43,789 nucleotides of DNA from a virus. Lineage: Duplodnaviria; Caudoviricetes. Where the stretch lies: IMG/VR virus record IMGVR_UViG_3300020045_008873, positions 1 through 43,789 of that record. The stretch is one strand, 5' to 3'. Under the pieces are notes generated by a model that did not search any database, was not told the origin of the DNA, and worked only from the letters and a program-made list of their open reading frames with translations. A program made the translations under genes and the position numbers. Of the stretch, positions 8,432 through 43,202 are shown piece after piece; the stretch's first letter is position 1; every line of letters starts with the position of its first letter.

Positions 8432-9151
8432 TTAAACCGTTCCTGCAAACAGCACCGGATACTTTCGCCGCGCCATATCACGATAGAATTGCCAGTACGT
8501 GCCTGCTAGTGCCGTCCGCTGGTTGCCCTCCGGCTTTAGGTAGCGGCTGTACACAATCGCGTCAATTTGCCTTGCTTGCACCCCCCCATTCACCAGCGCA
8601 CATTGCAGGCCGAAATCCTCAGCATAGGCAAAATCAGGATCAAAGCCGCCCACGCGCTGCCAATCGGATTGATGAAACATAAACGTAACGCCCGTGATAT
8701 TCTTGCGCGTAAGTGAACCGGGCGGCGCGGCTTTAATGCGGTTCACTTCATTGCCGCTGTGCTCTAAGTAGTCGCCATACACGAACGTTCCCGGCTGCCA
8801 TGCGTCCAAGAGTGGCGCTAGGGAATGCAGTTCATCGTCAGCATCAAGGCAAACTATCAACGGTGCATATGCCATTTCAATCAGGAAGTTACGAGCAAAG
8901 TTCACGCCCGCCCGCACGGTATGAAGCATCGAATAGAACTCTAATTCAGGTGTGGACTGACACAATCCCTCAAGTATCTGGCGCGTGCCATCGGTGCTCG
9001 CATCATCATATACCAGTACCTCAGTAGCGCCCGCTTCCACTGCGCTGTTAATGGCGCGGGCTATGGTGGCTTCACCGTTACGAACTGGGATGATACAGGC
9101 TACCTCATTGGTTCGTGGTATCACGGTTAATTCATCCTGGTTTCCGTTCAC
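8432..9151 (-). CDS. Glycosyltransferase family 2
   Basis: IIPVRN, YDDASTDGT, LDADD, VGGFD...AEDF motifs. Confidence 0.9.
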   Translation of the reverse strand: MNGNQDELTVIPRTNEVACIIPVRNGEATIARAINSAVEAGATEVLVYDDASTDGTRQILEGLCQSTPELEFYSMLHTVRAGVNFARNFLIEMAYAPLIVCLDADDELHSLAPLLDAWQPGTFVYGDYLEHSGNEVNRIKAAPPGSLTRKNITGVTFMFHQSDWQRVGGFDPDFAYAEDFGLQCALVNGGVQARQIDAIVYSRYLKPEGNQRTALAGTYWQFYRDMARRKYPVLFAGTV

Positions 9152-10748: not shown

Positions 10749-11231
10749 TTACGGCCTCCACTTCCATTGTAATCGCTTTGCCACATTATATATGGTTGTT
10801 GTGCTTACCCCAAACATAGTCGCTAAATCTCTTGTTTTCACATCTCTTAGGTAATGTTCCCGAATGTAATCTACTTGCTCATTTGTGAGTCTGTGTTGAT
10901 GATGTCCTTCACCTTTTATTCCTCTACCTTTATTATCTCTGTCTTTTGTGTTCTCTTGTGTCGTTCCGAGAAATAAATGCTTTGGGTTACAGCAAGGGGG
11001 ATTGTCACATTTATGGAGTACTTGTAATCCGTCAGGAATATTGCCGTAAGTTATCATCCATGAGAACCGGTGTGTGCGTGTGTGTGAATAAGGGTCTGGT
11101 CTAATGCTCCCATAACCATCTTTGTCTTTCCATCCATGCCATTCCCAACATTTTTCATCATCTGCGGTGATAGCAACTTTAGACCAGAATTTTAGAATAC
11201 GTTGTTCGGGGGTATACTGAGGTCTAGCCAT
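10749..11231 (-). CDS. HNH homing endonuclease (free-standing)
   Basis: CWEW...GYG...HRFSW...VLHKCDNPPCCNPKHLFLGT..EN plus C-terminal HTH. AT-rich. Start moved to ATG 11231 (AAGGA SD, upstream TATAAT and hairpin 11258-11291). Confidence 0.88.
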   Translation of the reverse strand: MARPQYTPEQRILKFWSKVAITADDEKCWEWHGWKDKDGYGSIRPDPYSHTRTHRFSWMITYGNIPDGLQVLHKCDNPPCCNPKHLFLGTTQENTKDRDNKGRGIKGEGHHQHRLTNEQVDYIREHYLRDVKTRDLATMFGVSTTTIYNVAKRLQWKWRP

Positions 11232-11332
11232 TTGTAAATCATCCTTACTTTGGTTAGAACGCGCTTTGATGTGTCTAGCATCAGGCGCGTTTGCTATTTT
11301 ATTTACTCCCTCAATTATACTACATAAGTACC

Positions 11333-11482
11333 TCAGTCGAACCAACCTATTTTCCTTTTCAATTCTACAACACATTTGCACCGTTGGCACAAAGCGCGGT
11401 GTGTCTTATTGTTCGCGAGGTAGAAAACATGGCGGAATGTGTGTCCGAACAGTCGGCAATACAGGCGGCGGATAAGGTTCAT
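11333..11482 (-). CDS. Small Cys/His protein, DUF1660-like (49 aa)
   Basis: Not in the track. MNLIRRLYCRLFGHTF...CQRCKC, ATGA-coupled to the upstream gene. Confidence 0.6.
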   Translation of the reverse strand: MNLIRRLYCRLFGHTFRHVFYLANNKTHRALCQRCKCVVELKRKIGWFD

Positions 11483-11715
11483 AGTGTCTCAAATAATGCT
11501 TGTGACTCTGCCTGCAATCGTTCCTTGCGCCGCTCTAACATTTTTGCAGTGTAGGGCATGACAGCACCAGAGGGGAATGTGATGTAAGTAACTATTGGCT
11601 CACCTGCCATGCAAGGCCAATGAGAGCACACCGGATTGGTGTGCTCCCCTACGCGCTCTAAAGACGGGCGCTGCTTATGCTTCGATTTCAACGCCTTGTG
11701 CCTCGGCAAAGTCAA
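11479..11715 (-). CDS. Hypothetical protein (start uncertain)
   Basis: Fills the gap after the helicase-methylase and is coupled to the next ORF. Confidence 0.4.
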   Translation of the reverse strand: MTLPRHKALKSKHKQRPSLERVGEHTNPVCSHWPCMAGEPIVTYITFPSGAVMPYTAKMLERRKERLQAESQALFETL

Positions 11716-14035
11716 ACAGTGTCGGAGTGTTGGCTAAGTCCTCGGCCTGCTGCAAATAGCGCTGTGCATGTTTCCAGTAGGATTCCTTGAGTTCAATTCC
11801 GATGAACTTGCGTCCCATGCGGATGGCCTCATATCCCTCGGAACCAATGCCCGCAAACGGGGAGAATACCGTATCATCTTTGTTTGTCCATAAGTCGATT
11901 GAGCGGGCAATAACATCCAATTGCAACGGGCAGATGTGCTTCTCATCCTGGCTATCGCGTGCCATCTGGAAGTTCAGCACGTTAGTCTGGTCAATATCAA
12001 ACCACACCGGGGAGGCGTAACGCTGCCATACTGCGATGGAGTAATTGTCATCAACTGACCGCTTGCCGTGTTCCAGTTTCGCCAGTACCGGCGGCTCAGT
12101 GCCAATGTAATCCCCGACTACGCGCTTTTGTTTCACGGGCTTTCCGCCTTCAATCGGCCACTTGCGAAACACCACCATGTAATCAGGCATTCCCTGACGA
12201 CACGCATCGGCAGTGCTGGCAAAGTTCTTATGCAGCAGGCCGTGGTTCTTAGTGCGCTGCATTTCGATTACCGGATCTTTCCAGATGGTCACGCGACTAT
12301 GATACTGCCAGCCGTGCGCCTCGAATGCCTTGATAATCTTGCCGGGGAAGTCTACCAGCCCCGCCGCGCCGTCACGGTTCATATAGGCAGGCAGGTCTTT
12401 GCAGTGCACCGCGCATAACCGGCCCGGTGTGGTCACACGATACAGGTCTTTGATGAGGAACTCGTAATGCTTGAAAAATTCCTCATCATCGGCACTATTG
12501 CCCATGTCCGCTTCACTGTCTGAATAGATGTACAGATTGGCAAACGGGGGCGAGTGAATGCAGAAGTCAATGCTGTTGTCTGGCAAGGTTGCGGTTTCGG
12601 TTACGCAGTCACCCAGGATCATAGTCCAGTCACGGCCGTGCGCCACTTTTGTTTCAGGAATAGATAAACTCATGCGGTTGCTCCCTCTGAATAGGCCATG
12701 TTCATTCATTGCTTCATTCATGGCGGCTTGCATTTCACTGAAACTTTCCTGCTTTTGTTTCAGGATAGTTAAAATGTTTCCTTCAGTTTCAGCATATATC
12801 ATATGCGCGTTGACGGCCTGCTGTTGACCAAACCGATACGAGCGGCGTAAAGCCTGATAGGTCTTTTCGAATGAGTAACTCACTCCCACGAATATCTGAT
12901 TCGGGCAGTGCTGCCAGTTCAATCCAAACCCGGCAATGTCGGGTTTGCTGATAATGACCCTGTACTCCTGATTACTAAACGCCTTGAGTTTAGCCTCTTT
13001 GTACTTATCATCGCCACGCACTTCGGTTGCGCCGGGCAATGCCAGCATGAGCGCGTCGGCTTCATAGTTGGTATCACACCACACGATGTACGGCTCATCT
13101 GGCGCGGCCTCGAATGTTTCCAGCGCCATTGCTACCCGTACATCCAAACTCTCGCGCTTCACTTTGTGCATACCCGTCGACGATGGACTGTCATCAGGCA
13201 TAAGCCGCCCCTCTGCCCATGCCCGGTCAATACTGACTTGTGGCGCAGATAAGCGATGTTCAATGATGTTGAGCGGAGGCAGTTCAAATGAAGGCATATC
13301 GTACTCTGATCCCAAGTCACCGGGCTTAGAGATGCACACTGCCCATGAAGTCAGCCAGCGCCAGAAGTCCTTAGCTGCATGATCTTTCAATCGGTAACTA
13401 CCCGCTTCCATCGTGTCATTAATGAACCAGCGGCTAATCATTTCGTTGGCTGGCAACACGTCCAGGAATGCGGAATGGTTGCCAAGCTCTAGATGATCAT
13501 TCGGGGCAGGGGTAGCAGTGCAGGCCAGTTTGTAAGGGGTGCGCTCAAACGCCTCCATAATGGCGCGTTTGGTCTTACCCATGAACGCCTTGAGAATAGA
13601 ACTTTCATCCAACACAACGCCCACGAACTGACTTGCGTCCATCAGATGCAACCGCTCATAGTTGCAGATGATAATGCGCGTGTCCCCAACTTCATCCTGA
13701 TTGTGAACCTGCTTGACTTCGATCCCCAGCTTCATACCTTCGTCAACAGTTTGGTAGGCCACGGCCAACGGCGCAAGGATTAGCACCTTACCGCCCGTGT
13801 GCATGGCTACCAACCGCGCCCATTCCAGCTGCATGAATGTTTTGCCAAGTCCACATTCGGCAAATATGGCGGCCTTGCCTAAGTGGACTGACCAGCGCAC
13901 AATCGCATTCTGGAACTCGAATAACATGGGGTTGATGTCATCAGGGGAAACGTCAAAACCAGACTGCTGTACAGTCTGTAATTTTGACTTCAGAAACTCT
14001 TGATACTCTGCCGATGCTTTACTCTTCTTTTTCAT
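11675..14035 (-). CDS. SNF2-like helicase fused to an N4/N6 DNA methyltransferase
   Basis: ECGLGKT, LDESS, TATP, GFGLNWQ and QALRRSYRFGQ helicase motifs, then HSPPF and PFAGIGSEG (beta-class order). Start moved to ATG 14035 (AGGAG SD). Confidence 0.88.
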   Translation of the reverse strand: MKKKSKASAEYQEFLKSKLQTVQQSGFDVSPDDINPMLFEFQNAIVRWSVHLGKAAIFAECGLGKTFMQLEWARLVAMHTGGKVLILAPLAVAYQTVDEGMKLGIEVKQVHNQDEVGDTRIIICNYERLHLMDASQFVGVVLDESSILKAFMGKTKRAIMEAFERTPYKLACTATPAPNDHLELGNHSAFLDVLPANEMISRWFINDTMEAGSYRLKDHAAKDFWRWLTSWAVCISKPGDLGSEYDMPSFELPPLNIIEHRLSAPQVSIDRAWAEGRLMPDDSPSSTGMHKVKRESLDVRVAMALETFEAAPDEPYIVWCDTNYEADALMLALPGATEVRGDDKYKEAKLKAFSNQEYRVIISKPDIAGFGLNWQHCPNQIFVGVSYSFEKTYQALRRSYRFGQQQAVNAHMIYAETEGNILTILKQKQESFSEMQAAMNEAMNEHGLFRGSNRMSLSIPETKVAHGRDWTMILGDCVTETATLPDNSIDFCIHSPPFANLYIYSDSEADMGNSADDEEFFKHYEFLIKDLYRVTTPGRLCAVHCKDLPAYMNRDGAAGLVDFPGKIIKAFEAHGWQYHSRVTIWKDPVIEMQRTKNHGLLHKNFASTADACRQGMPDYMVVFRKWPIEGGKPVKQKRVVGDYIGTEPPVLAKLEHGKRSVDDNYSIAVWQRYASPVWFDIDQTNVLNFQMARDSQDEKHICPLQLDVIARSIDLWTNKDDTVFSPFAGIGSEGYEAIRMGRKFIGIELKESYWKHAQRYLQQAEDLANTPTLFDFAEAQGVEIEA

Positions 14036-14066
14036 GGTTGCTCCTGTTGCAATAACTATACTTTTT

Positions 14067-14095
14067 ATTATAGCTAGTATTGCTCCAAAAAGCAA
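14067..14095 (-). promoter_or_regulatory. Sigma70-like promoter for the helicase-methylase
   Basis: TTGCTT-17 nt-TATAAT. Confidence 0.7.
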
Positions 14096-16066
14096 CTATT
14101 CAGTGTGAGCGCGTTCCCAATCATTGGGATAGACTCTCAGTAATTCATCAATGTCGTCTTTGTGCACAAATAGATTATGACCGGGCTGATACTCATACCT
14201 CGTACCTGACACCCAAGCGTTGCCAAGTCCAAAGGCGTAGGGGTTGCGCCCTTTGTAAATGAGTTCAATGCTGTTTTGCATCTGCTCACTTTCGCCCATG
14301 TGCTTCTTAATCAGCGCCATGAGCTTTGTCACCTGTGCATCAAAGCTGTAATGCTCACGAACGAAGGCAGTGCCAGCGGCGGCTATTTCTTGTAGTTTAT
14401 CTATTTCATCACTTGTTGTATTTGCGAACCAATGGCGCAAGTCGTCAATTGACTTCCAGGGGACATAATGTCTATTTGCCCTCAATCCCGTCAGTTCATC
14501 CAGTCCATCCACATGCTGCTGTAGCACCACACCACCGCCCGCCGCGAGTGCCTGGAATAGTCGATTGCTCACGAACCCGCGAGAGGTGAAACCGTTATCT
14601 GATATGATGACCTTAGCTCGCCTGTATAGGAGCGCAGAGGTTGAAAAATTATAGAGGGTGGCGTGGGAATCGCCCGGTGTTTCAACGAGTCCGCCAAACG
14701 ATCTAACGACTTCTGCAATGGACTGTCGCTCTGGACTGCGGAGGCTGGCAAGGTACACAATAGGGAAGGACGATGGGTCACTGTCGAATGGATTAGGCCG
14801 TCCAAGCTCACGGAAGTAATTTGCCACATTTGTTTCTAATTCTCCTTGTGATTCCTCATAACCAATTTGCCAATAATCCCACTTGATGAACTCGCGTTCG
14901 TAAATCGGCACAACGTCAAGGTTCGTAATCAGTTGCAAGTCCACATGGCGCAGGAGCGCTATCATTTCGGGACTGGCAAGGCCGCCCGGTGCCTGGTCGC
15001 CATTCCAGTTAATAATGGTTGCACCCGTGCGCTGTCTGACTTCATGCAACATTTCAGCCGTAAGCGGCTTAGGCGATTGCAACTGAGTGAGGATTAAGTC
15101 GGGACGAAAGGTGTCTACCAAATCCATTAGCTGCACGCGCAGTTGTTTGGCGGGCACATCTAAGTAATCAAACTCTTGCACGATATGGGTAGCACCATAT
15201 TTGTTTTTTCCCCGCGCCAGTGCATCCCGCAACCCGCGCTTGCCATGTACAGGATGCTTTTGCACTGCCCACCCCGGCTCGTAAATAGGCAGGTAGAGAA
15301 TACGGGCGGCGCGTCTGTCCTGCTGTGGCATTTGCGGATCACTCATGACAATTACTCCGTTAGGCCACTGGTCATAAAAGAAGTGGCTATCATTCGACTT
15401 AATCCCTTTGTTACGGTTGATTTCGCGCAGTTCATCATCGGCTACATGATCCTCCACAATGCAACCGGGAACTGCGTCAACGGTGTAACCTTTGTTCCAT
15501 ATTTGAGCGCTGAGTGAATTGTCACCCGCATATACCTGCGCTCCCAACATCTCATCATGCGCACCTAGCCACCAGCCGCATTTGTCGCCTAACCATTTTC
15601 GGAACAAGCCGACTTGTGCATAGATTACGCTGGTGCGGTGTCCATCACGCAAGGCCGCCATGCGCAGGGTCTTGTAATCCTTTGTGGTGAAGAAGTCAGG
15701 TATGGGACGATTGTCTGCGAATGCCACCGCGCCACATTTCATGGTTTGCTCAAGGTGGACAATGGCAGGCATGATGCTGTTTTTCTTGAACGTTATATCA
15801 TCATTCGCCAGCATCACGTAAGTTCCCGTTGCGGCATACGCTCCACGCGTGAAGGCGCTAATCGCACCTAACAACGCCCCGTCCTCAATAAGCCTTATAT
15901 CAGGTTGCGCCTTGCACCATTCAATCGTGCCGTCATTCGACCCACCATCGACGATGACAATCTCATACGTGATACCCGGTAGCAGGTTGTCACGGAATGA
16001 TTGACACATTTCGGTGAGCATCTTGAGACGATTATAGCTGCCTGATACAAGGCTAATGAGAGGCAT
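14096..16066 (-). CDS. Two-domain glycosyltransferase (GT2 plus CgeB/Glyco_trans_1_2-like) with small C-terminal domain
   Basis: VDGGSNDGT and LANDD in the N-terminal half. NWNGD and SNRLFQALAAG in the C-terminal half. Confidence 0.85.
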   Translation of the reverse strand: MPLISLVSGSYNRLKMLTEMCQSFRDNLLPGITYEIVIVDGGSNDGTIEWCKAQPDIRLIEDGALLGAISAFTRGAYAATGTYVMLANDDITFKKNSIMPAIVHLEQTMKCGAVAFADNRPIPDFFTTKDYKTLRMAALRDGHRTSVIYAQVGLFRKWLGDKCGWWLGAHDEMLGAQVYAGDNSLSAQIWNKGYTVDAVPGCIVEDHVADDELREINRNKGIKSNDSHFFYDQWPNGVIVMSDPQMPQQDRRAARILYLPIYEPGWAVQKHPVHGKRGLRDALARGKNKYGATHIVQEFDYLDVPAKQLRVQLMDLVDTFRPDLILTQLQSPKPLTAEMLHEVRQRTGATIINWNGDQAPGGLASPEMIALLRHVDLQLITNLDVVPIYEREFIKWDYWQIGYEESQGELETNVANYFRELGRPNPFDSDPSSFPIVYLASLRSPERQSIAEVVRSFGGLVETPGDSHATLYNFSTSALLYRRAKVIISDNGFTSRGFVSNRLFQALAAGGGVVLQQHVDGLDELTGLRANRHYVPWKSIDDLRHWFANTTSDEIDKLQEIAAAGTAFVREHYSFDAQVTKLMALIKKHMGESEQMQNSIELIYKGRNPYAFGLGNAWVSGTRYEYQPGHNLFVHKDDIDELLRVYPNDWERAHTE

Positions 16067-16069
16067 GAG

Positions 16070-16879
16070 TTACACCTTTGCCGTTCGCTTTTTGCGCGTC
16101 TTTGTAACCTTCACAGGCGGTAAGGTGACACTCTCAATCGGTGCAATGCCCACTGACTGAACACTGTCATCTATCGCCACCTCTTGCCACTCCCCCGGTG
16201 CAACCGTGAGAGCAATGCCACAATCGCTTGGTTCAGGTAGGTACAGTCTGAAATAAGCGTTAGCTTGCGCTAGGCCATCTTGCACCGCTTTGCCCACCGG
16301 CGAGTAAGGCGCTCCGATGCTACCCGGCTGGTAATTGCCATCCCATGAGAACGTTTTAGGCGCGTCATGGTTCACTAAGAACCCGCCCGGTTGCAGCTTG
16401 CGTAAAGCCAATCGGCTCAAGGTGGCGACCAGTTCGGTTTCATGAGACGCATCTTCAAAGATAAACCCTATCGACTGGTCATCTTGTTCGGATAACCAGT
16501 CCTCGCCATTGGCACGTATCAGCGTGACATAGGGGCGCAAGTGGTTTGGGATTAACTCGCCATGCACCGCTTCCAACGTGCCGTTATCCACGCTAATGAC
16601 TTCACCGAATCCGTTGCGCTTAATGGCCGCTGCCAGATGCGACGTGCTGCAACCTGATAGCCCGCCGATCTCTACCACTGTCAACGGTTTCAGGTAGCGA
16701 ATCAGGGCGTAAAGTATCTGGCCTTCAACGCCCCACAGACTACCCATCGGAAAGACGCGCATAGCTTCATTGATGTGATAGCCGCCCAAGTCATCCTCAG
16801 CCGCAAATTCTTGCAGCTCTCGCGGATCTGCTTTTACCTGTGCGGCGACGAGTTGTAAGGTCTCGATAAGTGATGTCAA
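16070..16879 (-). CDS. Class I SAM methyltransferase (Methyltransf_24-like O-methyltransferase)
   Basis: VVEIGGLSGCST, IFEDASH, LQPGGFLVNHD. TTG start at 16879 with AGGAG SD, overlapping the upstream stop. Confidence 0.82.
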   Translation of the reverse strand: MTSLIETLQLVAAQVKADPRELQEFAAEDDLGGYHINEAMRVFPMGSLWGVEGQILYALIRYLKPLTVVEIGGLSGCSTSHLAAAIKRNGFGEVISVDNGTLEAVHGELIPNHLRPYVTLIRANGEDWLSEQDDQSIGFIFEDASHETELVATLSRLALRKLQPGGFLVNHDAPKTFSWDGNYQPGSIGAPYSPVGKAVQDGLAQANAYFRLYLPEPSDCGIALTVAPGEWQEVAIDDSVQSVGIAPIESVTLPPVKVTKTRKKRTAKV

Positions 16880-17640
16880 GATGTTTGCTCCTTTATATGT
16901 TGCACGTTGACGATAGTTTCCCAATTGAGGGGAACTGCCAGGATGTCGGTTTGTTCAGGGTTACTCCACACGTAACCCCATGATTCTAACATCTCAATAA
17001 TCTTATTTGCCGCCAGTCCGAACTGGTCAGCGTTTTGTTGACTGTATTCGGCAATGATAAACGGATGATATTTTTCAATGATATGCGCCGCGCCTTCGAG
17101 TACCAATTGCTCAGCGCCCTCAACATCAATCTTGAGAACCGTTGGCACGATGTCATTTTGCTTGCAAAACCTGTCCAACTTAATCACGCGCACAGGTACA
17201 GCCTCAGTTACTTTGTGATACTCTGGCGTGCCGTTCACAATACTAACGCCCTTTCCACCATCGGCCTTCACCACATGAGCCACACCCGTGCCGTCATAGT
17301 TGCCCACGGCTACCGGATGCGTACTGACTTTGTTCTGTAACCCGTTCAGCTTCACATTCTCATTAAGCACTTGATAGGTGAGGGTTACAGGCTCAAATGC
17401 CCACACGGTTAAGTCAGGATGCAAGGCAGACAGCAGCGTGTAACAACCCGTGCTTGCCCCCACGTCAAGTAGTGTAGCGCGTGGGTAGCGGCTTAATTGC
17501 TCCCATGCCCATGCCAGCGGCGCGGGGGAGTAGGGGCGCAGTGGATCATAATAGAAGCTGCCGCCCAATGTAGCAGTCCTATCGTCAACCAACACCTTGC
17601 GCCCGTCGTTGAGTAAGTCAACTTCAATTGTCACACTCAC
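16876..17640 (-). CDS. FkbM-family methyltransferase
   Basis: LDVGASTG, WAFEP, LKIDVEGAE..VLEGA. Confidence 0.92.
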   Translation of the reverse strand: MSVTIEVDLLNDGRKVLVDDRTATLGGSFYYDPLRPYSPAPLAWAWEQLSRYPRATLLDVGASTGCYTLLSALHPDLTVWAFEPVTLTYQVLNENVKLNGLQNKVSTHPVAVGNYDGTGVAHVVKADGGKGVSIVNGTPEYHKVTEAVPVRVIKLDRFCKQNDIVPTVLKIDVEGAEQLVLEGAAHIIEKYHPFIIAEYSQQNADQFGLAANKIIEMLESWGYVWSNPEQTDILAVPLNWETIVNVQHIKEQTS

Positions 17641-21293: not shown

Positions 21294-21559
21294 TAGATGT
21301 TATGCCGCCATCCTGTATAGCTGTGCAGGAATAATGCCACACCTGCAATCGCCAGCGCGTCCGTAACCACGTTTGCACCAATGAGCCTCAGCACCAGCGC
21401 CACCCATACCGATAGACAGATGATACAAGTTGTTAGGCCGCCTAATGGCAGGCGTTCACGTAGCCACTCGAACACGCCGAACGGGCCTGTTGTGTTGACT
21501 ACTGCATAGCTTATGTACCATGCGGCGCTGGCATAGGTCAGCAGTTCAAGGAGTGTCAT
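21293..21559 (-). CDS. DUF1360-like membrane protein
   Basis: GPFGVFEWLRE...LTTCIICLSVWVA. Confidence 0.7.
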   Translation of the reverse strand: MTLLELLTYASAAWYISYAVVNTTGPFGVFEWLRERLPLGGLTTCIICLSVWVALVLRLIGANVVTDALAIAGVALFLHSYTGWRHNI

Positions 21560-22431
21560 GTCAAACCGCTTTGCTTCAATACCTGTTCCCGCTTGGGCGC
21601 AAGCTGACGCGGATCTCTGGTTGCTCGAAACAATGGCCGCCCTTGATTGTCCTTAAGCCTCTCAATATCAGTCGGACTAACCATGAGCTTTGAGCCATTG
21701 CCACCGACATAAAGGCGTTGACTGTAAGGACTGTACTCACTGCGCATACCCGTCCACAGTGTTTCAGCCAACACATCGCCCGGCTGCCCCGCTCCGGGGT
21801 CAGCTTGCACTGCACTATCGGGATTACCACAACATGCCATAATTCTTGCCATTCCTCCATTACGTAATGCTACTCGTTCGATAATGTCCTTATAATCCGC
21901 CCGTGCGTGAAAGTCTTTACTGCGCTGCCCGGTGTCATCCGGCCTCAGCACAAGCGGCTTGTCTAAGTGTATGCCGCAAATGCCAGCGGCATACGAACGC
22001 ATGTAAAAGTCAGCATCTTCATGACCGGGTAATGTCTCATCAAAACCGCCTAAGTATTTGAACAGGGCAGTCGGGTAGAGCGTGGTGACAATGTGGAAAC
22101 TTTCACCGCTCCATGCACACGGTTTCGGCTTGAATACCCACTGCCCCGCACCCTCTGCCCATGAGGTGAATACGTACTTACCCTCCTGATAATCTAGGAG
22201 GCATTCAGCCACGAACGACGGATGCAAGATGTCATCTGCATCAAGGAACACGAGGAAAGGCGTATCTACGGTTTTCCCATAGTTGCGCCCAATGGCAGGC
22301 GTGCCGATAGATTCAATCGCCTTTACATCGCAACGGATTGTTTGCACCTCTGCACTCTTAACCGCCCGCTCTACAATGTTGGCATGATAGGGCGCAAATG
22401 GCACAATGATGGTAGCAATTGCATCCGCCAT
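21556..22431 (-). CDS. Glycosyltransferase family 2 with C-terminal MACCG domain
   Basis: IIVP, RNYG, FLDADD, GGFDE...HEDADF. Confidence 0.88.
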   Translation of the reverse strand: MADAIATIIVPFAPYHANIVERAVKSAEVQTIRCDVKAIESIGTPAIGRNYGKTVDTPFLVFLDADDILHPSFVAECLLDYQEGKYVFTSWAEGAGQWVFKPKPCAWSGESFHIVTTLYPTALFKYLGGFDETLPGHEDADFYMRSYAAGICGIHLDKPLVLRPDDTGQRSKDFHARADYKDIIERVALRNGGMARIMACCGNPDSAVQADPGAGQPGDVLAETLWTGMRSEYSPYSQRLYVGGNGSKLMVSPTDIERLKDNQGRPLFRATRDPRQLAPKREQVLKQSGLT

Positions 22432-22435
22432 GAGG

Positions 22436-22699
22436 TTACTCGTTAGTGTCTTTTGTGGCTGGATCAAATACTACTTCTGAGTAAATGGTATCCACTATTT
22501 CAGACTTCTCAATAGCCATGCTTCCGAGCCAGCGTGTAGCGCCACCCATACTCTCTCTATTCGCGCTGATAAATATCTCAACGCCAAGAGGGTTTTCCCT
22601 GCTCACGTCAAACAGCATGTCATCAATGACCCACTGCTCAATTTCCAACTCAATAACCCATTGTCCATCTTTACGGAACATCTTTGCATTTGTTTCCAT
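22436..22699 (-). CDS. Hypothetical protein
   Basis: GGGAG SD before ATG 22699, co-oriented. Confidence 0.55.
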   Translation of the reverse strand: METNAKMFRKDGQWVIELEIEQWVIDDMLFDVSRENPLGVEIFISANRESMGGATRWLGSMAIEKSEIVDTIYSEVVFDPATKDTNE

Positions 22700-28554: not shown

Positions 28555-28611
28555 TTACAAATTGTAGTAAAGTGCCCGGTTGCAGGCCATGCTCAGAGCC
28601 ACCGCTGCATC
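28555..28611 (-). pseudogene. Displaced original 3' end of terL
   Basis: Translates DAAVALSMACNRALYYNL*, against the current TerL end DACVSLSMAVNRAMYYNL*. Confidence 0.9.
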
Positions 28612-29363
28612 TAAGGGCGACGGCATTTCCACCCTTTATGAGTGCGGCCTGTTTTCATAACTCTCGACATCATACCTTGATCTAATCCATTCTCTCTGCA
28701 AAAACGCGCAAGACCTTTAATGAGCACTTCATTCCCATCCGGAGAAGTAACAATAAAATCTTGCGAACGAGTTTCGGTATACTTTTGCAAAGACTCAGGT
28801 GTGCGCTTTTTACCACGCATCGCATTCCCAAACCTATGCCGCAATTCCGCTGATGGATTAGCGTGGATTATCCGTAACTTAGAGCGTGTTTCCTCTGTTG
28901 CCTTTTTACCTTTACGAGTCCTACGCATAAGCTCTATTTGCGCTTCAGATAACTTTCGGCCTCTTTGACCTTCAGATATTTTACGCCTTGATTCATCAGT
29001 ATGTCTAATCCCCGTATGCGCCGCAGACATTCTTGCTAATGTTTCAGAGGAATGTTTCAACCCCTTCATTGGCGCGGCTGTACTTTGACATATGTTATAT
29101 GTGAGCTTGTTTCCAATAGTATCAATCCAAAATTGCTCACGTCCTAATAACATATCAATCTCGCACCGTTCCAATATCTTAAACTCAAACGTCTTTTCAC
29201 CATATTTATTCCATGAGTTCTGAAGATACTTATTGTGGTGCTTTCCCTTTATTAGATCATTGCGATGTTCATTAATCCGTTTACGGATGTTTTGACTTGA
29301 ACCAATATAGACCTTATTAGTTTTCTTATTCCTGATGACGTAGATACCTGATACAATTATCAC
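28611..29363 (-). CDS. GIY-YIG homing endonuclease with NUMOD3 repeats
   Basis: SGIYVI...VYIGSS..I.KR...H and REQFWI. KHSSETLARMS and RHTDESRRKIS repeats. GTG 29363 with AGGAG SD. Confidence 0.92.
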   Translation of the reverse strand: MIIVSGIYVIRNKKTNKVYIGSSQNIRKRINEHRNDLIKGKHHNKYLQNSWNKYGEKTFEFKILERCEIDMLLGREQFWIDTIGNKLTYNICQSTAAPMKGLKHSSETLARMSAAHTGIRHTDESRRKISEGQRGRKLSEAQIELMRRTRKGKKATEETRSKLRIIHANPSAELRHRFGNAMRGKKRTPESLQKYTETRSQDFIVTSPDGNEVLIKGLARFCRENGLDQGMMSRVMKTGRTHKGWKCRRP

Positions 29364-29487
29364 AGTGACCACTCCTATTGGTTGCTCACTCACCCGGCTA
29401 TTTCGAGTAGCGCGGGTGAGCCTTTTTACATCATAGATTATAATACATGGCTCTATTAACTGCCATTGATAAACTTACACATGCATC
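28612..29487 (-). mobile_element. 876-bp homing-endonuclease cassette inserted in the terL 3' end
   Basis: AT-rich, bounded by two copies of TAGATGCA, carries a recoded terL end, a hairpin and the endonuclease gene. Confidence 0.82.
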
Positions 29488-34702: not shown

Positions 34703-36524
34703 TGCCTCCCTTGAACTTAACCTGGATCATTACGCCTTCTTTTTCGCCCGCCTCACGATGCTTCAAACAGCGCAGTACAATCTGCCCGGCGGGGAAGTCG
34801 GAATTTTCAGCCTTCACACCCTTTTTAACCAAATTGCCATGATTATAAAGCGCCAGCACCACGTCGGCATTCTCTTCAATCCGCCCACTGCCCTTACCAT
34901 CGTGCAATGTTGGAATGCGGTTATCTCTGCCCTCCAGAGACCGCCCCACCTGTGACGTGGACAGCACCGCTAATCCCATGCGTGCCAATTCCTGAGCGCA
35001 GTCTGATGCTTCACTCACCGTGTCAAATATGCTGGATTTTCCCTCCGCTTTCACGTTGGATAAGCTGTCCAATATGATCCACTGGCAACCTTTCTCTGCA
35101 ATCGCTTTTTTGGCCGTTTCGATGATATGACTCACGGTAGGGTTCTGGCATTCAATGACCTCGCACTGCTGCTGCCTGAGTAAGGCATTGGTGCTATAAA
35201 CGCGGGCGGACTCGTTAGGCTCTAATATACCCTTTCGCATCTTGTCTTTGGATATGCCCACGCGATAGGCCACAATCTGATTCCACCATTTGAGCGCTCG
35301 TGACTCAGTTGGGATAACCAGACCCGGCGCTTGATTAACCAGGTTGGAAGCAATGCTGGCGACGCAGGTAGACTTACCCATACCCGTCTCAGCCAGCACC
35401 ACATACATCATCCCCCTGTCTATCCCTTCAATTAAATCATCCAATTTGGTCATGCCTGTGCTAAACCCTTGCACCGTGCCAGCATGGGACAGATTGCCTT
35501 TTATCCACGTCTCATACTCGACTGACACCTGCTCAAATGTGACCACCTCTCCAGCGGGCGGCCTTAAGCGGTGTATTTCATCCTGCAAGCGGTTCAGGGT
35601 ATCTTCCAGATTACCCGCCTCCCCCTTGCGCAGGTTTACCAGTTCTTTACCCACCTTAACTAGATCTCCCACATTCACGGGTTTTGGCGGTGGCAGTCGG
35701 GTGATAGGTGTTAGAGCATTAAAGTCGGTAAGGCTGGATTCCCCATGCAATTTGCAAAAGTCGGCCAAGTCGCCTTTGTCCGTGAGCATCAAGTCAACAA
35801 TGCTGTATTGCACGCCCGCACCCGTGAAGGCCGTGACAAACTTCTCAGTCCCTTTCCGCCCCGCCTCATCACAGTCCAGTGCAATCCGAACACTGCCTTT
35901 CCATTGCTTTTTGAGTTCAGCCATTAGTTCGGGCGTTACTTTGTGGTTCTCTCCCCCTGGCATACAAAAAGCAGGCAAGCCGAAATGCTGCGCTACAATC
36001 GTTGAGGGTTCGCCATTGCACAAAATCAGGGGCAGCTTGCCCGCCAGTTTGATAGCCCGTGCCAGTCCATACCAGCACACCTCAAAACCTTTGATGCTCT
36101 TGAAGGCTGGCGATTGTCCATCAATAAACCGGTAGCGCTCGCCGCCCGCTGTTGGAAACTTAAAGCAGGGGCGATTGTCGAAATAAGTATGTACCTCCCA
36201 TCCCGCCTCAATAAACACTTGTTCAGGCACGCCCTTCAATTCTGCATATTCCGCTAGAGTTGAATAGGCGCGTTTTGAGTTCTCTACTTTTTCGCGTTTA
36301 GGTGTTTCAATGCCAAGCCGTTCCGCCAACTCGTATAGACTACCCGCCTCCCCCGTCACATGGTCTAACCAGGTTCCGTATTCCCCGCTGTCAATCTTGA
36401 GGGTGAACCCGTGTGAGTTCGAGTTAGGCCGCAGGGGTGAGTTCAGTTGATACTCATTTCCCCTACCCTTCAAGTCATATTGTTCCAATGCCTTAAGTAC
36501 CCGGTCAGCAGTAGTCATCTCCAT
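34686..36524 (-). CDS. Primase (TOPRIM) - DnaB-like helicase fusion
   Basis: IALDCDEAG and KGDLADF. Walker A AETGMGKS, IILDSL, SQVGR...SGRIEENADVV, KHR. Confidence 0.88.
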   Translation of the reverse strand: MEMTTADRVLKALEQYDLKGRGNEYQLNSPLRPNSNSHGFTLKIDSGEYGTWLDHVTGEAGSLYELAERLGIETPKREKVENSKRAYSTLAEYAELKGVPEQVFIEAGWEVHTYFDNRPCFKFPTAGGERYRFIDGQSPAFKSIKGFEVCWYGLARAIKLAGKLPLILCNGEPSTIVAQHFGLPAFCMPGGENHKVTPELMAELKKQWKGSVRIALDCDEAGRKGTEKFVTAFTGAGVQYSIVDLMLTDKGDLADFCKLHGESSLTDFNALTPITRLPPPKPVNVGDLVKVGKELVNLRKGEAGNLEDTLNRLQDEIHRLRPPAGEVVTFEQVSVEYETWIKGNLSHAGTVQGFSTGMTKLDDLIEGIDRGMMYVVLAETGMGKSTCVASIASNLVNQAPGLVIPTESRALKWWNQIVAYRVGISKDKMRKGILEPNESARVYSTNALLRQQQCEVIECQNPTVSHIIETAKKAIAEKGCQWIILDSLSNVKAEGKSSIFDTVSEASDCAQELARMGLAVLSTSQVGRSLEGRDNRIPTLHDGKGSGRIEENADVVLALYNHGNLVKKGVKAENSDFPAGQIVLRCLKHREAGEKEGVMIQVKFKGGIGCYD

Positions 36525-37444
36525 ATCTCCGTAATGCCTATAGCTCTTAGCTCAGGCGATATATCATCACCGGTCAGTATTCCAGTTTTGACGACGGGCG
36601 GGGGTTGCGACGGGGGGTCATCAGCATAGTGCAGCTCTTCACCATTCATGTGCGTTATGCCATACAGTTCAATTGGTCGTTTGCGCAGGTGGCGCGGTAA
36701 GTCGGGCGCTTCAGGTTGGTCTAATCGAGTTGCCCGGTATTCGCTAAGATGGGTTGAAAGTGCGCGAGGGCTGAATGTTTTGAATTTCGCCTTACACCAT
36801 GCATAGAGTGAACTGACACGATCCGCCTCAAATCCAACTGTGCAAAGTTCTTTAGCAGTCGCTTGCACTATACCCCACTCGCCTTTAGTCATTGTGTCTA
36901 CATGCCATCCGAACGCTGCTACGATTGCATTTTTCATGATTGTCATTTGAGGTGCAGGTATGGAATTGGATTTAGACCCCTTTTCGCGTTTACGCGCAAT
37001 AGTCTCTGTTGTAGTCTCTGTTGTAGTCTCTGTTGAGGATCGTTCAGTTTCTTCACTATCGATAGTTAAGTTTCTTGACTTTCGTTCGTCAAGCTTCTTC
37101 ACTATCCATAATTCAAATTCTGACTTTCGGAGGCGGTAATGAACAGTAGGTGCACCATTGAATTTACGCACCATCGTCTCTACGCCAGCCTCACCTAACC
37201 GCTTTGTCGCCGCCATAACCTGATATTTGGATAGTGTGATTTCATCTGTCCACTCAGAATACGACTTTGCAAACCATCCATCATCCATTTTAGTGCGGTC
37301 AGTCCAGTAAATGATCTGACTGAGAAGTAGTGCATCTTCAATATTTCCTGTTACATCAATGTAGGGACGGGGAATTGTAAGTACATTCTCTTGCCCTGAA
37401 AACGAGGCCAATAAATCAGCTACCCATAACCGTGTGGTGTTCAT
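36515..37444 (-). CDS. Phage replication initiator (N-terminal winged helix)
   Basis: ALLLSQIIYW...GWFAKSYSEW..EITLS...HYRL, upstream of the helicase, with internal repeats. Confidence 0.78.
   Translation of the reverse strand: MNTTRLWVADLLASFSGQENVLTIPRPYIDVTGNIEDALLLSQIIYWTDRTKMDDGWFAKSYSEWTDEITLSKYQVMAATKRLGEAGVETMVRKFNGAPTVHYRLRKSEFELWIVKKLDERKSRNLTIDSEETERSSTETTTETTTETIARKREKGSKSNSIPAPQMTIMKNAIVAAFGWHVDTMTKGEWGIVQATAKELCTVGFEADRVSSLYAWCKAKFKTFSPRALSTHLSEYRATRLDQPEAPDLPRHLRKRPIELYGITHMNGEELHYADDPPSQPPPVVKTGILTGDDISPELRAIGITEIWR
37000..37035. repeat. 3 x 12-bp tandem repeat TAGTCTCTGTTG in the initiator gene
   Basis: Exact copies at 37000, 37012 and 37024, encoding STETTTETTTET. Confidence 0.85.
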
Positions 37445-38067
37445 TTTCGTTTCAGGCCACCATAGGTTATTGCAAAACGCCCTCTTCGGTTGACTACCAT
37501 GAAAATACTACCAATTGAGACATTAAACTCTTTTGCAATTTGCTTATAGGTTTTATTGCAATAGGCGTAGTCGTATCGGATAGCTTCTATCTGTTCTGGA
37601 GTTAATACGGCGCTGTAATGCTTGTCACCTTTAATAATATTCCCCCTACCTTTTGCCCACATATCATTGACGTTGTCTTGATGAGTGCCAAGGAATAGAT
37701 GCTTCGGGTTACAACAAGCAGGGTTATCACATGAGTGGCAGACAAACATACCTTCGGGGATTATGTAATTAGGGTATGACCATGCCACTCGGTGCGCTCT
37801 TTCTTGACGACCACGTCGCCCTACATTCCCATAACCACTACTACTTTTCCCGCCCTTCCACAACCAACATTGATTATCATCAGCGGTAATAGCGACCTTA
37901 GACCAAAACAACTTATCTTGTTTTTCTTGATCGTATTTTCTGTTGTGCCCGAAAATATATCTATTGGGCTTTCCCTTTGTTATTCCTTTTGATAAGTGTG
38001 TCTCTGAGGCTAGTTTTGTTTTCTGACCGCAACCACACTGACAATATCCGTATGGAATTTGTGTCAT
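37441..38067 (-). CDS. HNH homing endonuclease (free-standing)
   Basis: CQCGCG N-terminus, CWLW...AHRVAW...VCHSCDNPACCNPKHLFLGT..DN. Confidence 0.88.
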   Translation of the reverse strand: MTQIPYGYCQCGCGQKTKLASETHLSKGITKGKPNRYIFGHNRKYDQEKQDKLFWSKVAITADDNQCWLWKGGKSSSGYGNVGRRGRQERAHRVAWSYPNYIIPEGMFVCHSCDNPACCNPKHLFLGTHQDNVNDMWAKGRGNIIKGDKHYSAVLTPEQIEAIRYDYAYCNKTYKQIAKEFNVSIGSIFMVVNRRGRFAITYGGLKRK

Positions 38068-41740: not shown

Positions 41741-41953
41741 ATGGCATGGTTCAACGCAACGCCTTTAGAGCTGTCCATCGTTGAGCAGATTGAAACGGCC
41801 TTCAGTGACGAAACAATCGACGATGCTTACCGCGCCGGATTGATGATCCAATTATGGTACGAACTGGAACGGGCGCATGGTAGCAGGGTGCTGAGTCTGG
41901 TATCGCCAGAGGGCGCAATCATTGAGCGTCCAGTTTTTCTAGGAAGCAAATAA
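41741..41953 (+). CDS. Hypothetical protein (70 aa)
   Basis: GAGGAG SD before ATG 41741. Confidence 0.55.
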   Translation: MAWFNATPLELSIVEQIETAFSDETIDDAYRAGLMIQLWYELERAHGSRVLSLVSPEGAIIERPVFLGSK

Positions 41954-41974
41954 GCAAAACAGGGAGCAAGGAAT

Positions 41975-43108
41975 ATGAGCACAACGCAATCGGAAGCGTT
42001 TTATAAAGTAAACGCATTACTGGAAGAGCAACGGGACGCAGCGTATGAGGTGGCGCGCAACGCAATCGCAGGCCCCAGACCAACGCAAGGAACGCAGCCA
42101 ACGCTAGATGATTATCGCAAACGCAACACGGGAAAGTATTCGCCGCGCATGTTAATTGCGATTGATATTCTAGTTGCGTTCCTGATGGTAGTTGCGTTTT
42201 TTATGAGCGCAATACGCATTCACGCAACTGCGTTGACCGGGGCGCAATCGCTATTCGCAAATGACATTGCATCGCAATACTGGACTGCGTTATTTGTGGT
42301 GCTTTTGGCAGAGACCTGTCAAATCGTTTTCAGCGTTGCGTTTGCAACCACCGATAGCGTTTTGCAAAAGATTGCATACGCAGTCGGCGCTGCGTTTGGA
42401 ACGCTGATTGCGTTGTACGGCAATGGCGCAAAAGCAGAGCAAGGCATATCGCAAGAGCTTGCGTTGCTGGTTACGTATGTTCCTCCGGTGCTAACGCTCA
42501 TCGCAGCGCAAGTTTTAAAGTCGCATATGCTGCACGCAATCGAAGAACGCAGACAGTCAAACGCACTGTACGCAACTGCGTTAGATGAGTGGAAACGCAA
42601 TTTCGAGATTGCGTCTGCGGAGTGGACAACGCAATACTCAAACGCAACTGAACACGCAGAATGGACAATGCAACTGGCAAACGCACTACGCAATGCGTTG
42701 CGACTGGCAAACCGACAAAGCAAGGCGCAATTGCGTTTGCTCACCAACGCAGACTGGCACGCCCTAGTGCTGCGTGAACGCAATGCGTCTGAGTGGTGGA
42801 AGGTAGCTGAAACGCAAGTACAGCAGGAGGCAATGCGTTTTGAAGTGAAGCGTGCAACGCAGCGCAGCGGCGCAATGTCCACCGGATCGACTGGCGAAGT
42901 GAACGCAGCGGAAACAAAACGCAATGGCGATGCGTTTGTGAAAGTGTGTCCACACTGCCAGCAAGAATTTGAACGCGACACCGAGCGCAGCGCTACTAAC
43001 GCATTGGTAGCGCACATGAAAAAGCATAAGAACGAACGCAAAACGCAACGCAATGCAGTTCTGGAAGCTGAACTATTCTTGAACGGGCATAGCGAACCAA
43101 CCCCCTAA
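41975..43108 (+). CDS. Four-TM membrane protein with coiled coil and C-terminal C2H2-like zinc finger
   Basis: Four hydrophobic helices (DUF2637-like layout), a long helical region, and CPHC-x18-HMKKH. Confidence 0.75.
   Translation: MSTTQSEAFYKVNALLEEQRDAAYEVARNAIAGPRPTQGTQPTLDDYRKRNTGKYSPRMLIAIDILVAFLMVVAFFMSAIRIHATALTGAQSLFANDIASQYWTALFVVLLAETCQIVFSVAFATTDSVLQKIAYAVGAAFGTLIALYGNGAKAEQGISQELALLVTYVPPVLTLIAAQVLKSHMLHAIEERRQSNALYATALDEWKRNFEIASAEWTTQYSNATEHAEWTMQLANALRNALRLANRQSKAQLRLLTNADWHALVLRERNASEWWKVAETQVQQEAMRFEVKRATQRSGAMSTGSTGEVNAAETKRNGDAFVKVCPHCQQEFERDTERSATNALVAHMKKHKNERKTQRNAVLEAELFLNGHSEPTP
41984..43053. repeat. Dispersed ACGCA/TGCGT motif array inside the CDS
   Basis: Manual count ~30 ACGCA and ~16 TGCGT in ~1.1 kb. 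Confidence 0.9.
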
Positions 43109-43133: not shown

Positions 43134-43162
43134 TTGACATAATTTTCCTTATGGATTATACT
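43134..43162 (+). promoter_or_regulatory. Near-consensus sigma70 promoter with operator
   Basis: TTGACA-17-TATACT. CATAAttttccTTATG at 43138-43153. Confidence 0.82.
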
Positions 43163-43202
43163 AAGTATATAGTCAAGTGAAGCAAGGAAACAGGGAGCAA
43201 TC

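What the first reader, a model, noticed from the sequence alone, without database searches (positions are those of the whole stretch)
41975..43108. Membrane-anchored zinc-finger gene saturated with one DNA motif: possible self-binding DNA tether
Seen: about 46 copies of ACGCA/TGCGT (often AACGCAA) in 1134 bp, against roughly 2 expected for a 5-mer on both strands. They occur in both orientations and all three frames (AAC GCA, ACG CAA, AAA CGC AAC), so selection is on DNA rather than protein. The array stops at the gene boundaries and includes inverted pairs such as ACGCAATGCGT and ACGCAACTGCGT. The product has four TM helices, a coiled coil and a C-terminal C2H2-like finger. Inference: the protein binds a centromere-like array within its own gene and tethers phage DNA to the membrane. 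That would be a one-gene system for segregation, spread along a filamentous host, or exclusion. The loose analogy is Streptomyces plasmid Spd proteins.
Basis: partly seen in the sequence, partly recalled or inferred. Interest (0 to 1): 0.88.

Follow-up and report, generated by a model that had tools for sequence, protein, structure and literature searches.

The report
Membrane protein gene carries own address
A phage gene for a predicted four-helix membrane protein ending in a zinc-finger-like domain is packed with 46 copies of one short DNA word, an excess found in finger-bearing relatives but not in fingerless ones, so the protein likely grips its own gene and pins the phage DNA to the host membrane.

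Summary
ACGCA/TGCGT occurs 46 times in the gene, against 14.5±2.9 in synonymous shuffles and 1.8/kb elsewhere in the window. Synonymous positions inside motifs are conserved (36/42 versus 53/97 outside). A 40%-identical homologue keeps the density but shares only 8 of about 55 sites, so site number, not position, is kept.

The protein belongs to an unannotated family (504 clusters at 50% identity) of phages and small integrative elements, found in 90 of 382 genomes of one Chloroflexota order. The membrane part is constant; the C-terminus is a C2H2/C2HC finger, an HTH-like domain, or absent. The CGCA core is raised in 6 of 6 finger genes (strongly in 4), in 0 of 67 fingerless and 0 of 4 HTH-type genes; 3 of those 4 carry clusters of a different word.

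Best reading: the finger likely binds its own gene and tethers phage DNA to the membrane, for hand-over between cells. Binding and function are untested, and the six finger genes form one clade. It works like SpdA2/sps plus SpdB2 but showed no sequence match to pIJ101 SpdB or DUF2637.

The parts
41975..43108 (+). Gene for a 377-aa protein: N-terminal helices, four hydrophobic helices, long helix, helical domain, linker, C-terminal finger
   Evidence: ORF; 22 homologues at 32-86% identity; no Pfam, PHROGs or NCBIfam family at E<=0.001
41984..43052 (.). Dispersed array of 46 ACGCA/TGCGT words (35 are AACGCA), both orientations, no fixed spacing
42149..42517 (+). Four predicted transmembrane helices (about residues 59-80, 103-124, 129-149, 161-181); with four passes and a basic N-terminal flank, both ends are inferred to be cytoplasmic
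   Evidence: hydropathy, AlphaFold model, charge count
42518..42640 (+). Long soluble helix continuing from TM4 (residues 182-222), a predicted stalk or coiled coil
   Evidence: model helix 160-222, pLDDT about 80-95
42914..43027 (+). C-x2-C-x18-H-x3-H finger with an extra beta hairpin and a lengthened helix (R338, T341/N342 conserved); the predicted DNA reader
   Evidence: invariant C325, C328, R338, H347, H351; beta-beta-alpha in model; weak zf-C2H2_4 hit E 0.2, in 7 of 23 members
41961..41974 (+). Purine-rich ribosome-binding leader
   Evidence: read directly from the sequence

Best explanation
The gene's DNA is under selection to hold many copies of AACGCA, and its product, a predicted four-pass membrane protein with a cytoplasmic zinc finger on a stalk, likely binds those copies and so tethers phage DNA to the membrane. 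Shown: selection on the word, site turnover at constant density, and co-occurrence of the array with the finger. Inferred: one finger reads only a few bases, so specificity would come from many membrane-held fingers gripping a stretch about 100-fold richer in sites than the rest of the phage. That explains why density matters but spacing and orientation do not. Placing the sites in the gene itself would bring them next to the newly inserted protein and keep binder and target inseparable in recombination. Most likely use (inferred): holding phage genomes at the membrane so that they pass to daughter or neighbouring cells of the host, as Streptomyces Spd proteins do for plasmids. Fingerless relatives would get their DNA through a partner instead; the commonest sit just upstream of an HUH-relaxase-like gene.
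For: 46 observed vs 14.5±2.9 under synonymous shuffling; 31 control ORFs reach z<=3.9. Fourfold-degenerate positions inside motifs are conserved with L001 at 36/42 vs 53/97 outside, p=5e-4; with L001 as reference 36/40 vs 53/99, p=3e-5. Window vs L003 (40% aa identity): 55 and 54 WCGCA sites, 8 shared. CGCA core z = 8.5, 6.6, 6.5, 5.4, 3.6, 2.9 in the six finger genes; -1.9 to +1.4 in 67 fingerless genes; -0.8 to +1.0 in 4 HTH-type genes. L006, whose finger helix reads KQANTALSAH instead of RSATNALVAH, shifts its top word to ATCGCA (18 vs 3.9). Three of 4 HTH-type genes hold >=9 copies of their own 5-mer within 180 nt next to the C-terminal domain, vs 0 of 67 fingerless genes. Protein-only footprint of the word in the first 270 residues: 2.11x shuffled in 60 finger proteins of the query's clade, 1.32x in 34 finger proteins of the other clade, 1.06x in 27 without a domain (p=2e-11 and 0.003). 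32 of 66 fingerless loci, and none of the 6 finger or 4 HTH loci, carry the relaxase-like neighbour within the DNA fetched. Precedents: SpdA2 binds sps inside its own gene and both are needed for stability (PMC4170104); SpdB2 is a four-helix DNA-binding membrane protein with homologues on some actinophages (PMC4447253).
Against: No binding, localisation or expression data. The six finger genes with DNA form a single clade, so the finger-array link rests on one origin plus indirect footprints. Two of the six (L002, L013) are only weakly enriched: best 5-mer z 3.7 and 4.1, within the background range. The word shift in L006 is one case. HTH calls were made by eye; the only one of the four with a Pfam HTH hit (L051) did not pass the cluster test (6 copies), and 8 of 267 flank chunks also reach >=9 copies. 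At least 67 relatives have no domain and no array, so the membrane part works without them. Local mRNA folding is somewhat stronger than in shuffles (-33.6 vs -30.1±1.0 kcal/mol per 120 nt), which an RNA-level role would also give. No FtsK/TraB-like motor or ParA was found among 41 window ORFs scanned; the record is about 77% complete.
Confidence: 0.58

Rival explanations
1. The finger binds its own gene only as an autoregulatory roadblock that limits a toxic or pore-forming membrane protein; tethering is a side effect.
For: The array lies wholly within the transcribed ORF. SpdB2 forms pores (PMC4447253 passages).
Against: About 50 sites spread over 1.1 kb, with amino-acid sequence bent to hold them, is far more than repression needs. 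The promoter-like sites at 41790-41817 and 43134-43162 hold no copy. The 67 fingerless genes manage without it.
Confidence: 0.14
2. The protein is a membrane sensor-effector for superinfection exclusion: clustering on site-dense incoming or replicating DNA of kin phages oligomerises it and opens a pore.
For: Swappable DNA-reading domain on a fixed membrane domain; carried by phages and integrated elements.
Against: The phage's own gene is the densest target, so it would trigger itself. Keeping the trigger word under purifying selection is unexpected for a target of exclusion. PADLOC was not searched.
Confidence: 0.1
3. The word is read by another host or phage factor, or acts in the mRNA (an RNA-binding finger or RNA structure), not as a DNA site for this protein.
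For: Local folding is stronger than in shuffles. The window encodes other DNA-binding proteins (MarR, HTH). The single-clade caveat applies.
Against: A third of the copies are in the reverse orientation (30 +, 16 -; CGCA 33/30 in L003), which suits double-stranded DNA. Neighbouring genes lack the word in different phage backbones. Fingerless genes in related hosts lack it.
Confidence: 0.11
4. The array is a replication origin or iteron cluster that happens to lie in this gene.
For: Short words in both orientations cluster at primase/helicase genes in several related elements. Lambda O iterons lie in the O gene (recalled).
Against: The window has a separate O-like initiator (36515-37444) with its own three 23-nt-spaced repeats. 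The array is even across 1.1 kb, with no AT-rich unwinding region (gene GC 51%) and no converging order.
Confidence: 0.05
5. The excess is a by-product of protein sequence, codon bias or tandem duplication.
For: The protein is rich in NA, TQ and RN dipeptides, which raises the null from about 2 to 8-14.
Against: z is about 11 after fixing both protein and codon counts. All frames and both strands are used. Repeats do not extend much beyond the word. Sites are lost and regained at new positions.
Confidence: 0.02

Closest known systems
SpdA2/sps of Streptomyces plasmid pIJ101 (PMC4170104; abstract, introduction and passages read)
   Same: A DNA-binding protein whose sites lie inside its own coding region and shape its amino-acid sequence; removing the sites or the gene costs 16-21% plasmid loss after three sporulation rounds.
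   Different: sps is a 12-bp palindrome in 1-3 copies; here a 5-6-bp non-palindromic word in about 50 dispersed copies with turnover. Here the binder is predicted to be a polytopic membrane protein with a zinc finger, on tailed phages.
SpdB2 of pSVH1 and SpdB/DUF2637-type spread proteins (PMC4447253; passages read)
   Same: Four predicted transmembrane helices, coiled-coil parts, DNA binding, carried by mobile elements of filamentous bacteria and some phages. ESM Atlas ranks SpdB_N/DUF2637 clusters first for residues 1-280 (score 0.80, a lead only; TM 0.40/0.64).
   Different: SpdB2 binds DNA non-specifically and works with the TraB translocase. No profile match to pIJ101 SpdB (probability 0.9%), no DUF2637 match, and pIJ101 spdB holds no word array (best z 2.8). 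pSVH1 SpdB2 itself could not be compared.
Phage phi29 p16.7 (recalled; only a search listing seen)
   Same: A phage membrane protein with a coiled coil and a C-terminal DNA-binding domain that holds phage DNA at the membrane.
   Different: Single membrane anchor, non-specific binding, and no site array in its gene (all recalled).
Iteron arrays in or beside initiator and primase-helicase genes (lambda O, P4 alpha; recalled)
   Same: Short repeated words in or next to the gene of the protein that binds them; similar clusters were seen at primase/helicase genes of related elements.
   Different: Those are compact origins; this array covers a whole membrane-protein gene, and a separate initiator with its own repeats is present.

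Membership tests
SpdB/SpdB2 spread proteins | Four transmembrane helices with coiled-coil regions | tested here: met
   hydropathy and model; predicted only
SpdB/SpdB2 spread proteins | Sequence homology to SpdB | tested here: inconclusive
   No profile match to pIJ101 SpdB, one representative only. Atlas feature score 0.80 to SpdB_N clusters is below the 0.9 bar. PF27080 did not appear in the local Pfam scans.
SpdB/SpdB2 spread proteins | Encoded with a TraB/FtsK translocase in a spread operon | tested here: inconclusive
   No FtsK family among 41 window ORFs or 28 ORFs of related loci, but the records are 77% and 84% complete
SpdB/SpdB2 spread proteins | Oligomerisation, pore formation, DNA binding | not testable with these tools
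   needs experiments
DUF2637 (PF10935) | HMM score above the curated cut-off | tested here: not met
   No match in G000 or G001 at E<=10; not among the 25 families shown for 66 members or 23 members
SpdA/sps stability system | Binding sites inside the protein's own gene | tested here: inconclusive
   A selected word array lies in the gene and tracks the finger; binding is untested
SpdA/sps stability system | 12-bp palindromic site in 1-3 copies | tested here: not met
   non-palindromic 5-6-mer in 46 copies with no fixed spacing
Classical C2H2 zinc finger | CxxC...HxxxH ligands in a beta-beta-alpha fold | tested here: met
   four ligands invariant in 23 of 23; beta-beta-alpha in the alignment-based model. 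A single-sequence model of the fragment gave helices only.
Classical C2H2 zinc finger | 12-residue spacer and Pfam zf-C2H2 score above cut-off | tested here: not met
   spacer is 18 in 71 of 97 finger proteins; zf-C2H2_4 scores 12.9 bits against a cut-off of 27
ParABS/ParMRC/TubZRC partition systems | An NTPase motor encoded with the centromere-binding protein | tested here: inconclusive
   none among 41 window ORFs; record incomplete

The most novel reading that the evidence does not exclude
This is a one-gene, self-addressed DNA tether: a membrane module with an exchangeable DNA-reading tip (finger, HTH or none) whose own open reading frame evolves into the matching target by accumulating short words wherever the code allows, read by density rather than by spacing. 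Phages of Chloroflexota use it to hold their genomes at the membrane and pass them between cells without lysis, while small integrative elements use the same module with a relaxase-like partner. Each gene would then display the specificity of its own domain, giving a natural protein-DNA recognition code for a prokaryotic single zinc finger.
Probability: 0.35. Interest if true: 0.9.

Novelty: new variant of a known kind. Interest (0 to 1): 0.76.

Why it matters
How low-copy phage and mobile DNA is positioned or moved in Chloroflexota, many of which are filamentous, is little studied. This family offers a concrete one-gene candidate with a built-in test: recode the gene synonymously and the sites vanish while the protein stays the same. 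It is also a clear case of a coding sequence doubling as a dense, turning-over binding platform that bends the protein sequence. With hundreds of members carrying different C-terminal domains, pairing each gene's enriched word with its domain could give DNA specificities directly from sequence.

Tried and rejected
Family libraries: no Pfam, PHROGs or NCBIfam family for the protein at E<=0.001; 133 representatives gave only scattered weak hits. PDB sequence search gave a best E of 0.77. Fold searches gave no clear match: Foldseek best E 0.06, VIA best Z 7.7 on generic helical bundles. The single-sequence model of the finger was uninformative and was not searched.

No match in the annotated phage or plasmid collections with P0001, P0068 or L052; P0092 gave only short linker-level hits. 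The five scans of viral contigs after the first returned either the one provirus G001 or nothing. The family was not found in 300 phylum-level or 400 class-level sampled genomes besides G002. No DNA was obtained for finger genes of the other clade or for the metal-free clade, so covariation is not tested across independent origins.

The homodimer prediction gave no verdict. No sequencing run was listed. pSVH1 could not be fetched, so SpdB2 was not compared. Earlier scan notes held nothing relevant.

Literature searches for a description of this arrangement returned none; the library lacks most subscription papers, and no supplements were read.

Rejected readings: protein or codon artefact; a palindromic operator with fixed spacing; a cyanobacterial host as the title of L013's record suggests. 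The relaxase call for the neighbour gene rests on an HUH-like motif read by eye, an adjacent RHH gene and weak Pfam hits (E 0.04-0.08); PDB and NCBIfam did not confirm it.

Full report
Observation. The window is a tailed-phage record (terminase, tape measure, DnaB primase-helicase, O-like initiator), 43,789 bases and about 77% complete. The ORF at 41975-43108 holds 46 ACGCA/TGCGT words: 30 on +, 16 on -, in all three codon phases on +. That is 40.6/kb against 1.8/kb elsewhere. With the protein fixed, 7.8±2.5 are expected under window codon usage and 14.5±2.9 under a shuffle of the gene's own synonymous codons (maximum 25 in 3000). The best 5-mer in 31 other window ORFs reaches z 3.9 at most, against 10.1 here. 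The consensus is AACGCA(A/G). Inverted pairs exist, but no spacing is preferred. Outside the gene AACGCA occurs 12 times, against 20.7 expected from base composition.

Selection acts on the DNA. Against L001 (77% amino-acid identity), fourfold-degenerate positions inside motifs are unchanged at 36 of 42, against 53 of 97 outside (p=5e-4). Against L003 (40% identity) both genes hold 54-55 WCGCA sites but share only 8. Site number is kept while positions turn over. One test was negative: residues that depart from the family majority are not enriched inside motifs (5 of 44 vs 29 of 148, p=0.26).

Protein. Four hydrophobic segments lie at about 59-181. The alignment-based model (mean pLDDT 79.8, pTM 0.46) shows a long helix to residue 222, a helical domain, a low-confidence linker and a beta-beta-alpha unit at 320-351. 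C325, C328, R338, H347 and H351 are invariant in 23 of 23 close homologues. The spacer is 18 residues, not the classical 12. A profile search found 504 representatives at E<=0.001, of which the best 150 were listed. Of the 166 proteins held, 94 end in a finger, 26 in an HTH-like domain (judged by eye, a few with weak Pfam support), 11 in a metal-free finger-like unit and 27 in no domain; 8 are fragments. On a tree of the N-terminal part, the finger label needs 15 changes and the HTH label 17, so the tip has been swapped repeatedly (FastTree).

Distribution. Finger genes with DNA lie in phage-like contexts where enough flank was held (L002, L006, L013); G001 is classed as a provirus. L013 lies in genome G002. 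In G002's GTDB order, 90 of 382 genomes carry the family, often in several copies. None of 400 other class-level or 300 phylum-level sampled genomes did. The 16S genes of two genomes of the order match both Chloroflexi phylum probes exactly (probes from PMC6753630, passages read). G002's record title names a cyanobacterium, but it has 58-67% GC and no PsaA/B. The host of the window's phage is therefore inferred to be a Chloroflexota bacterium; whether it is filamentous was not tested.

The array tracks the tip. I fetched 70 of the order's loci (the 30 best and 40 chosen, mostly for longer frames), giving 67 fingerless and 4 HTH-type genes, 3 of them partial. The CGCA core has z 8.5, 6.6, 6.5, 5.4, 3.6 and 2.9 in the six finger genes (28-59/kb against 8-18/kb in flanks). 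It ranges from -1.9 to +1.4 in the 67 fingerless genes and -0.8 to +1.0 in the HTH genes. One fingerless gene reached a best 5-mer z above 4.5 (6 copies). L002 and L013 are weak by the best-5-mer measure. L006 has a changed finger helix and ATCGCA as its top word. L013 (C2HC finger) keeps the core but not the AA flank. Three HTH-type genes hold 9-10 copies of their own 5-mer (ACGGA, GGAAA, CTTCA) in both orientations within 180 nt next to the C-terminal domain; 0 of 67 fingerless genes and 8 of 267 flank chunks do. Those flank clusters are mostly iteron-like arrays at primase/helicase or initiator genes. The six finger genes are one clade. As an indirect check, the protein-level footprint of the word is 2.11x shuffled in 60 finger proteins of that clade, 1.32x in 34 of the other clade and 1.06x in 27 domain-less proteins; relatedness is not corrected for.

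Context of fingerless members. They lie among integrases, Prim-Pol, D5-like and DUF3987 helicases and SSB, that is, small integrative elements. In 32 of 66 fingerless loci, and in none of the 10 finger or HTH loci, the fetched DNA holds a gene with an HUH-like motif, followed in the three loci read in full by an RHH gene. The relaxase call is weak (TrwC E 0.07; unconfirmed). It suggests that the membrane module deals with mobile DNA and gets it either through a partner or through its own tip and array.

Mechanism. Shown: selection for a dense, orientation-free word array confined to this gene, and its co-occurrence with the finger. Inferred: the finger binds the word. A single finger is weak and short-sighted, so many membrane-held copies would read site density. 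Coupled transcription, translation and insertion would put new protein beside its own gene. The result is a tether of phage DNA to the membrane. Inferred further, and least sure: the tether serves hand-over of phage genomes to daughter or neighbouring cells. Rivals are autoregulation, a sensor-pore for exclusion, another reader or an RNA role (local folding -33.6 vs -30.1±1.0), and an origin, which is unlikely because the initiator gene has its own repeats at 37040-37121.

Comparison. SpdA2 of pIJ101 binds a palindrome inside its own gene and stabilises the plasmid (PMC4170104: part 1 of 6 and passages read). SpdB2 is a four-helix, pore-forming, non-specifically DNA-binding spread protein with homologues on some actinophages (PMC4447253: passages). 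This protein works, by inference, like the two in one chain. It shows no profile match to pIJ101 SpdB or DUF2637, only a sub-threshold Atlas lead, and pIJ101 spdB has no array. phi29 p16.7, lambda O and P4 alpha are recalled, not read. Searches found no description of this arrangement.

Verdict. A real, selected feature in an undescribed family; self-binding tether 0.58; new variant of a known kind; interest 0.76.

Noticed in passing
window 36515-37444 (-), repeats at 37040-37121: Lambda-O-like initiator gene with three 23-nt-spaced repeats and three copies of a 12-mer inside it: the likely origin.
   Followed up: partly
L095:9919-12408, L096:9470-14802, L097:5463-10347: A small integrative element repeated across one Chloroflexota order: fingerless membrane gene, HUH-like gene with no family, RHH, Prim-Pol, DUF3987 helicase, with GTCAC/TGACA clusters at the helicase end.
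   Followed up: partly
L013 / G002: The record title names a cyanobacterium, but the genome is 58-67% GC, lacks PsaA/B and groups with genomes matching Chloroflexi 16S probes.
   Followed up: yes
P0104, P0109, P0122, P0125, P0136, P0143, P0145, P0154, P0155, P0159, P0160: A clade of 11 members ends in a finger-like strand-strand-helix unit without Cys/His ligands; no DNA was obtained.
   Followed up: no
window 43078-43105 and most family members: Many members end in a short Asn-Gly-(Asn-Gly)-His tail whatever their C-terminal domain; unexplained.
   Followed up: no
window 8432-9151, 14096-17640, 21556-22467 (-): Several glycosyltransferase and methyltransferase genes in the late region; similar genes appear by eye in L015. 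Possibly virion or DNA modification.
   Followed up: no
window 11675-14095 (-): SNF2-type helicase fused to an N6/N4 DNA methylase.
   Followed up: no
window 10749-11390, 28611-29393, 37441-38067 (-): Two HNH and one GIY-YIG homing-type endonuclease genes.
   Followed up: no
window 43134-43162 and 43186-43202: A near-consensus sigma-70 promoter (11 of 12) directly after the gene; the next gene's leader repeats the purine-rich stretch found before 41975.
   Followed up: no
window 42319-43053 (-): A 244-aa antisense frame overlaps the gene; L003, L006 and L013 also have long antisense frames. Probably a by-product.
   Followed up: no
L055:680-864, L065:3443-3563, L069:3584-3735, L075:5242-5422, L076:1106-1228: Clusters of 9-11 copies of element-specific 5-mers in both orientations, in or near primase/helicase-type genes.
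   Followed up: partly
L050:146-1051: A subtilase-like protein followed by a Phe/Thr-rich repeated peptide tract.
   Followed up: no
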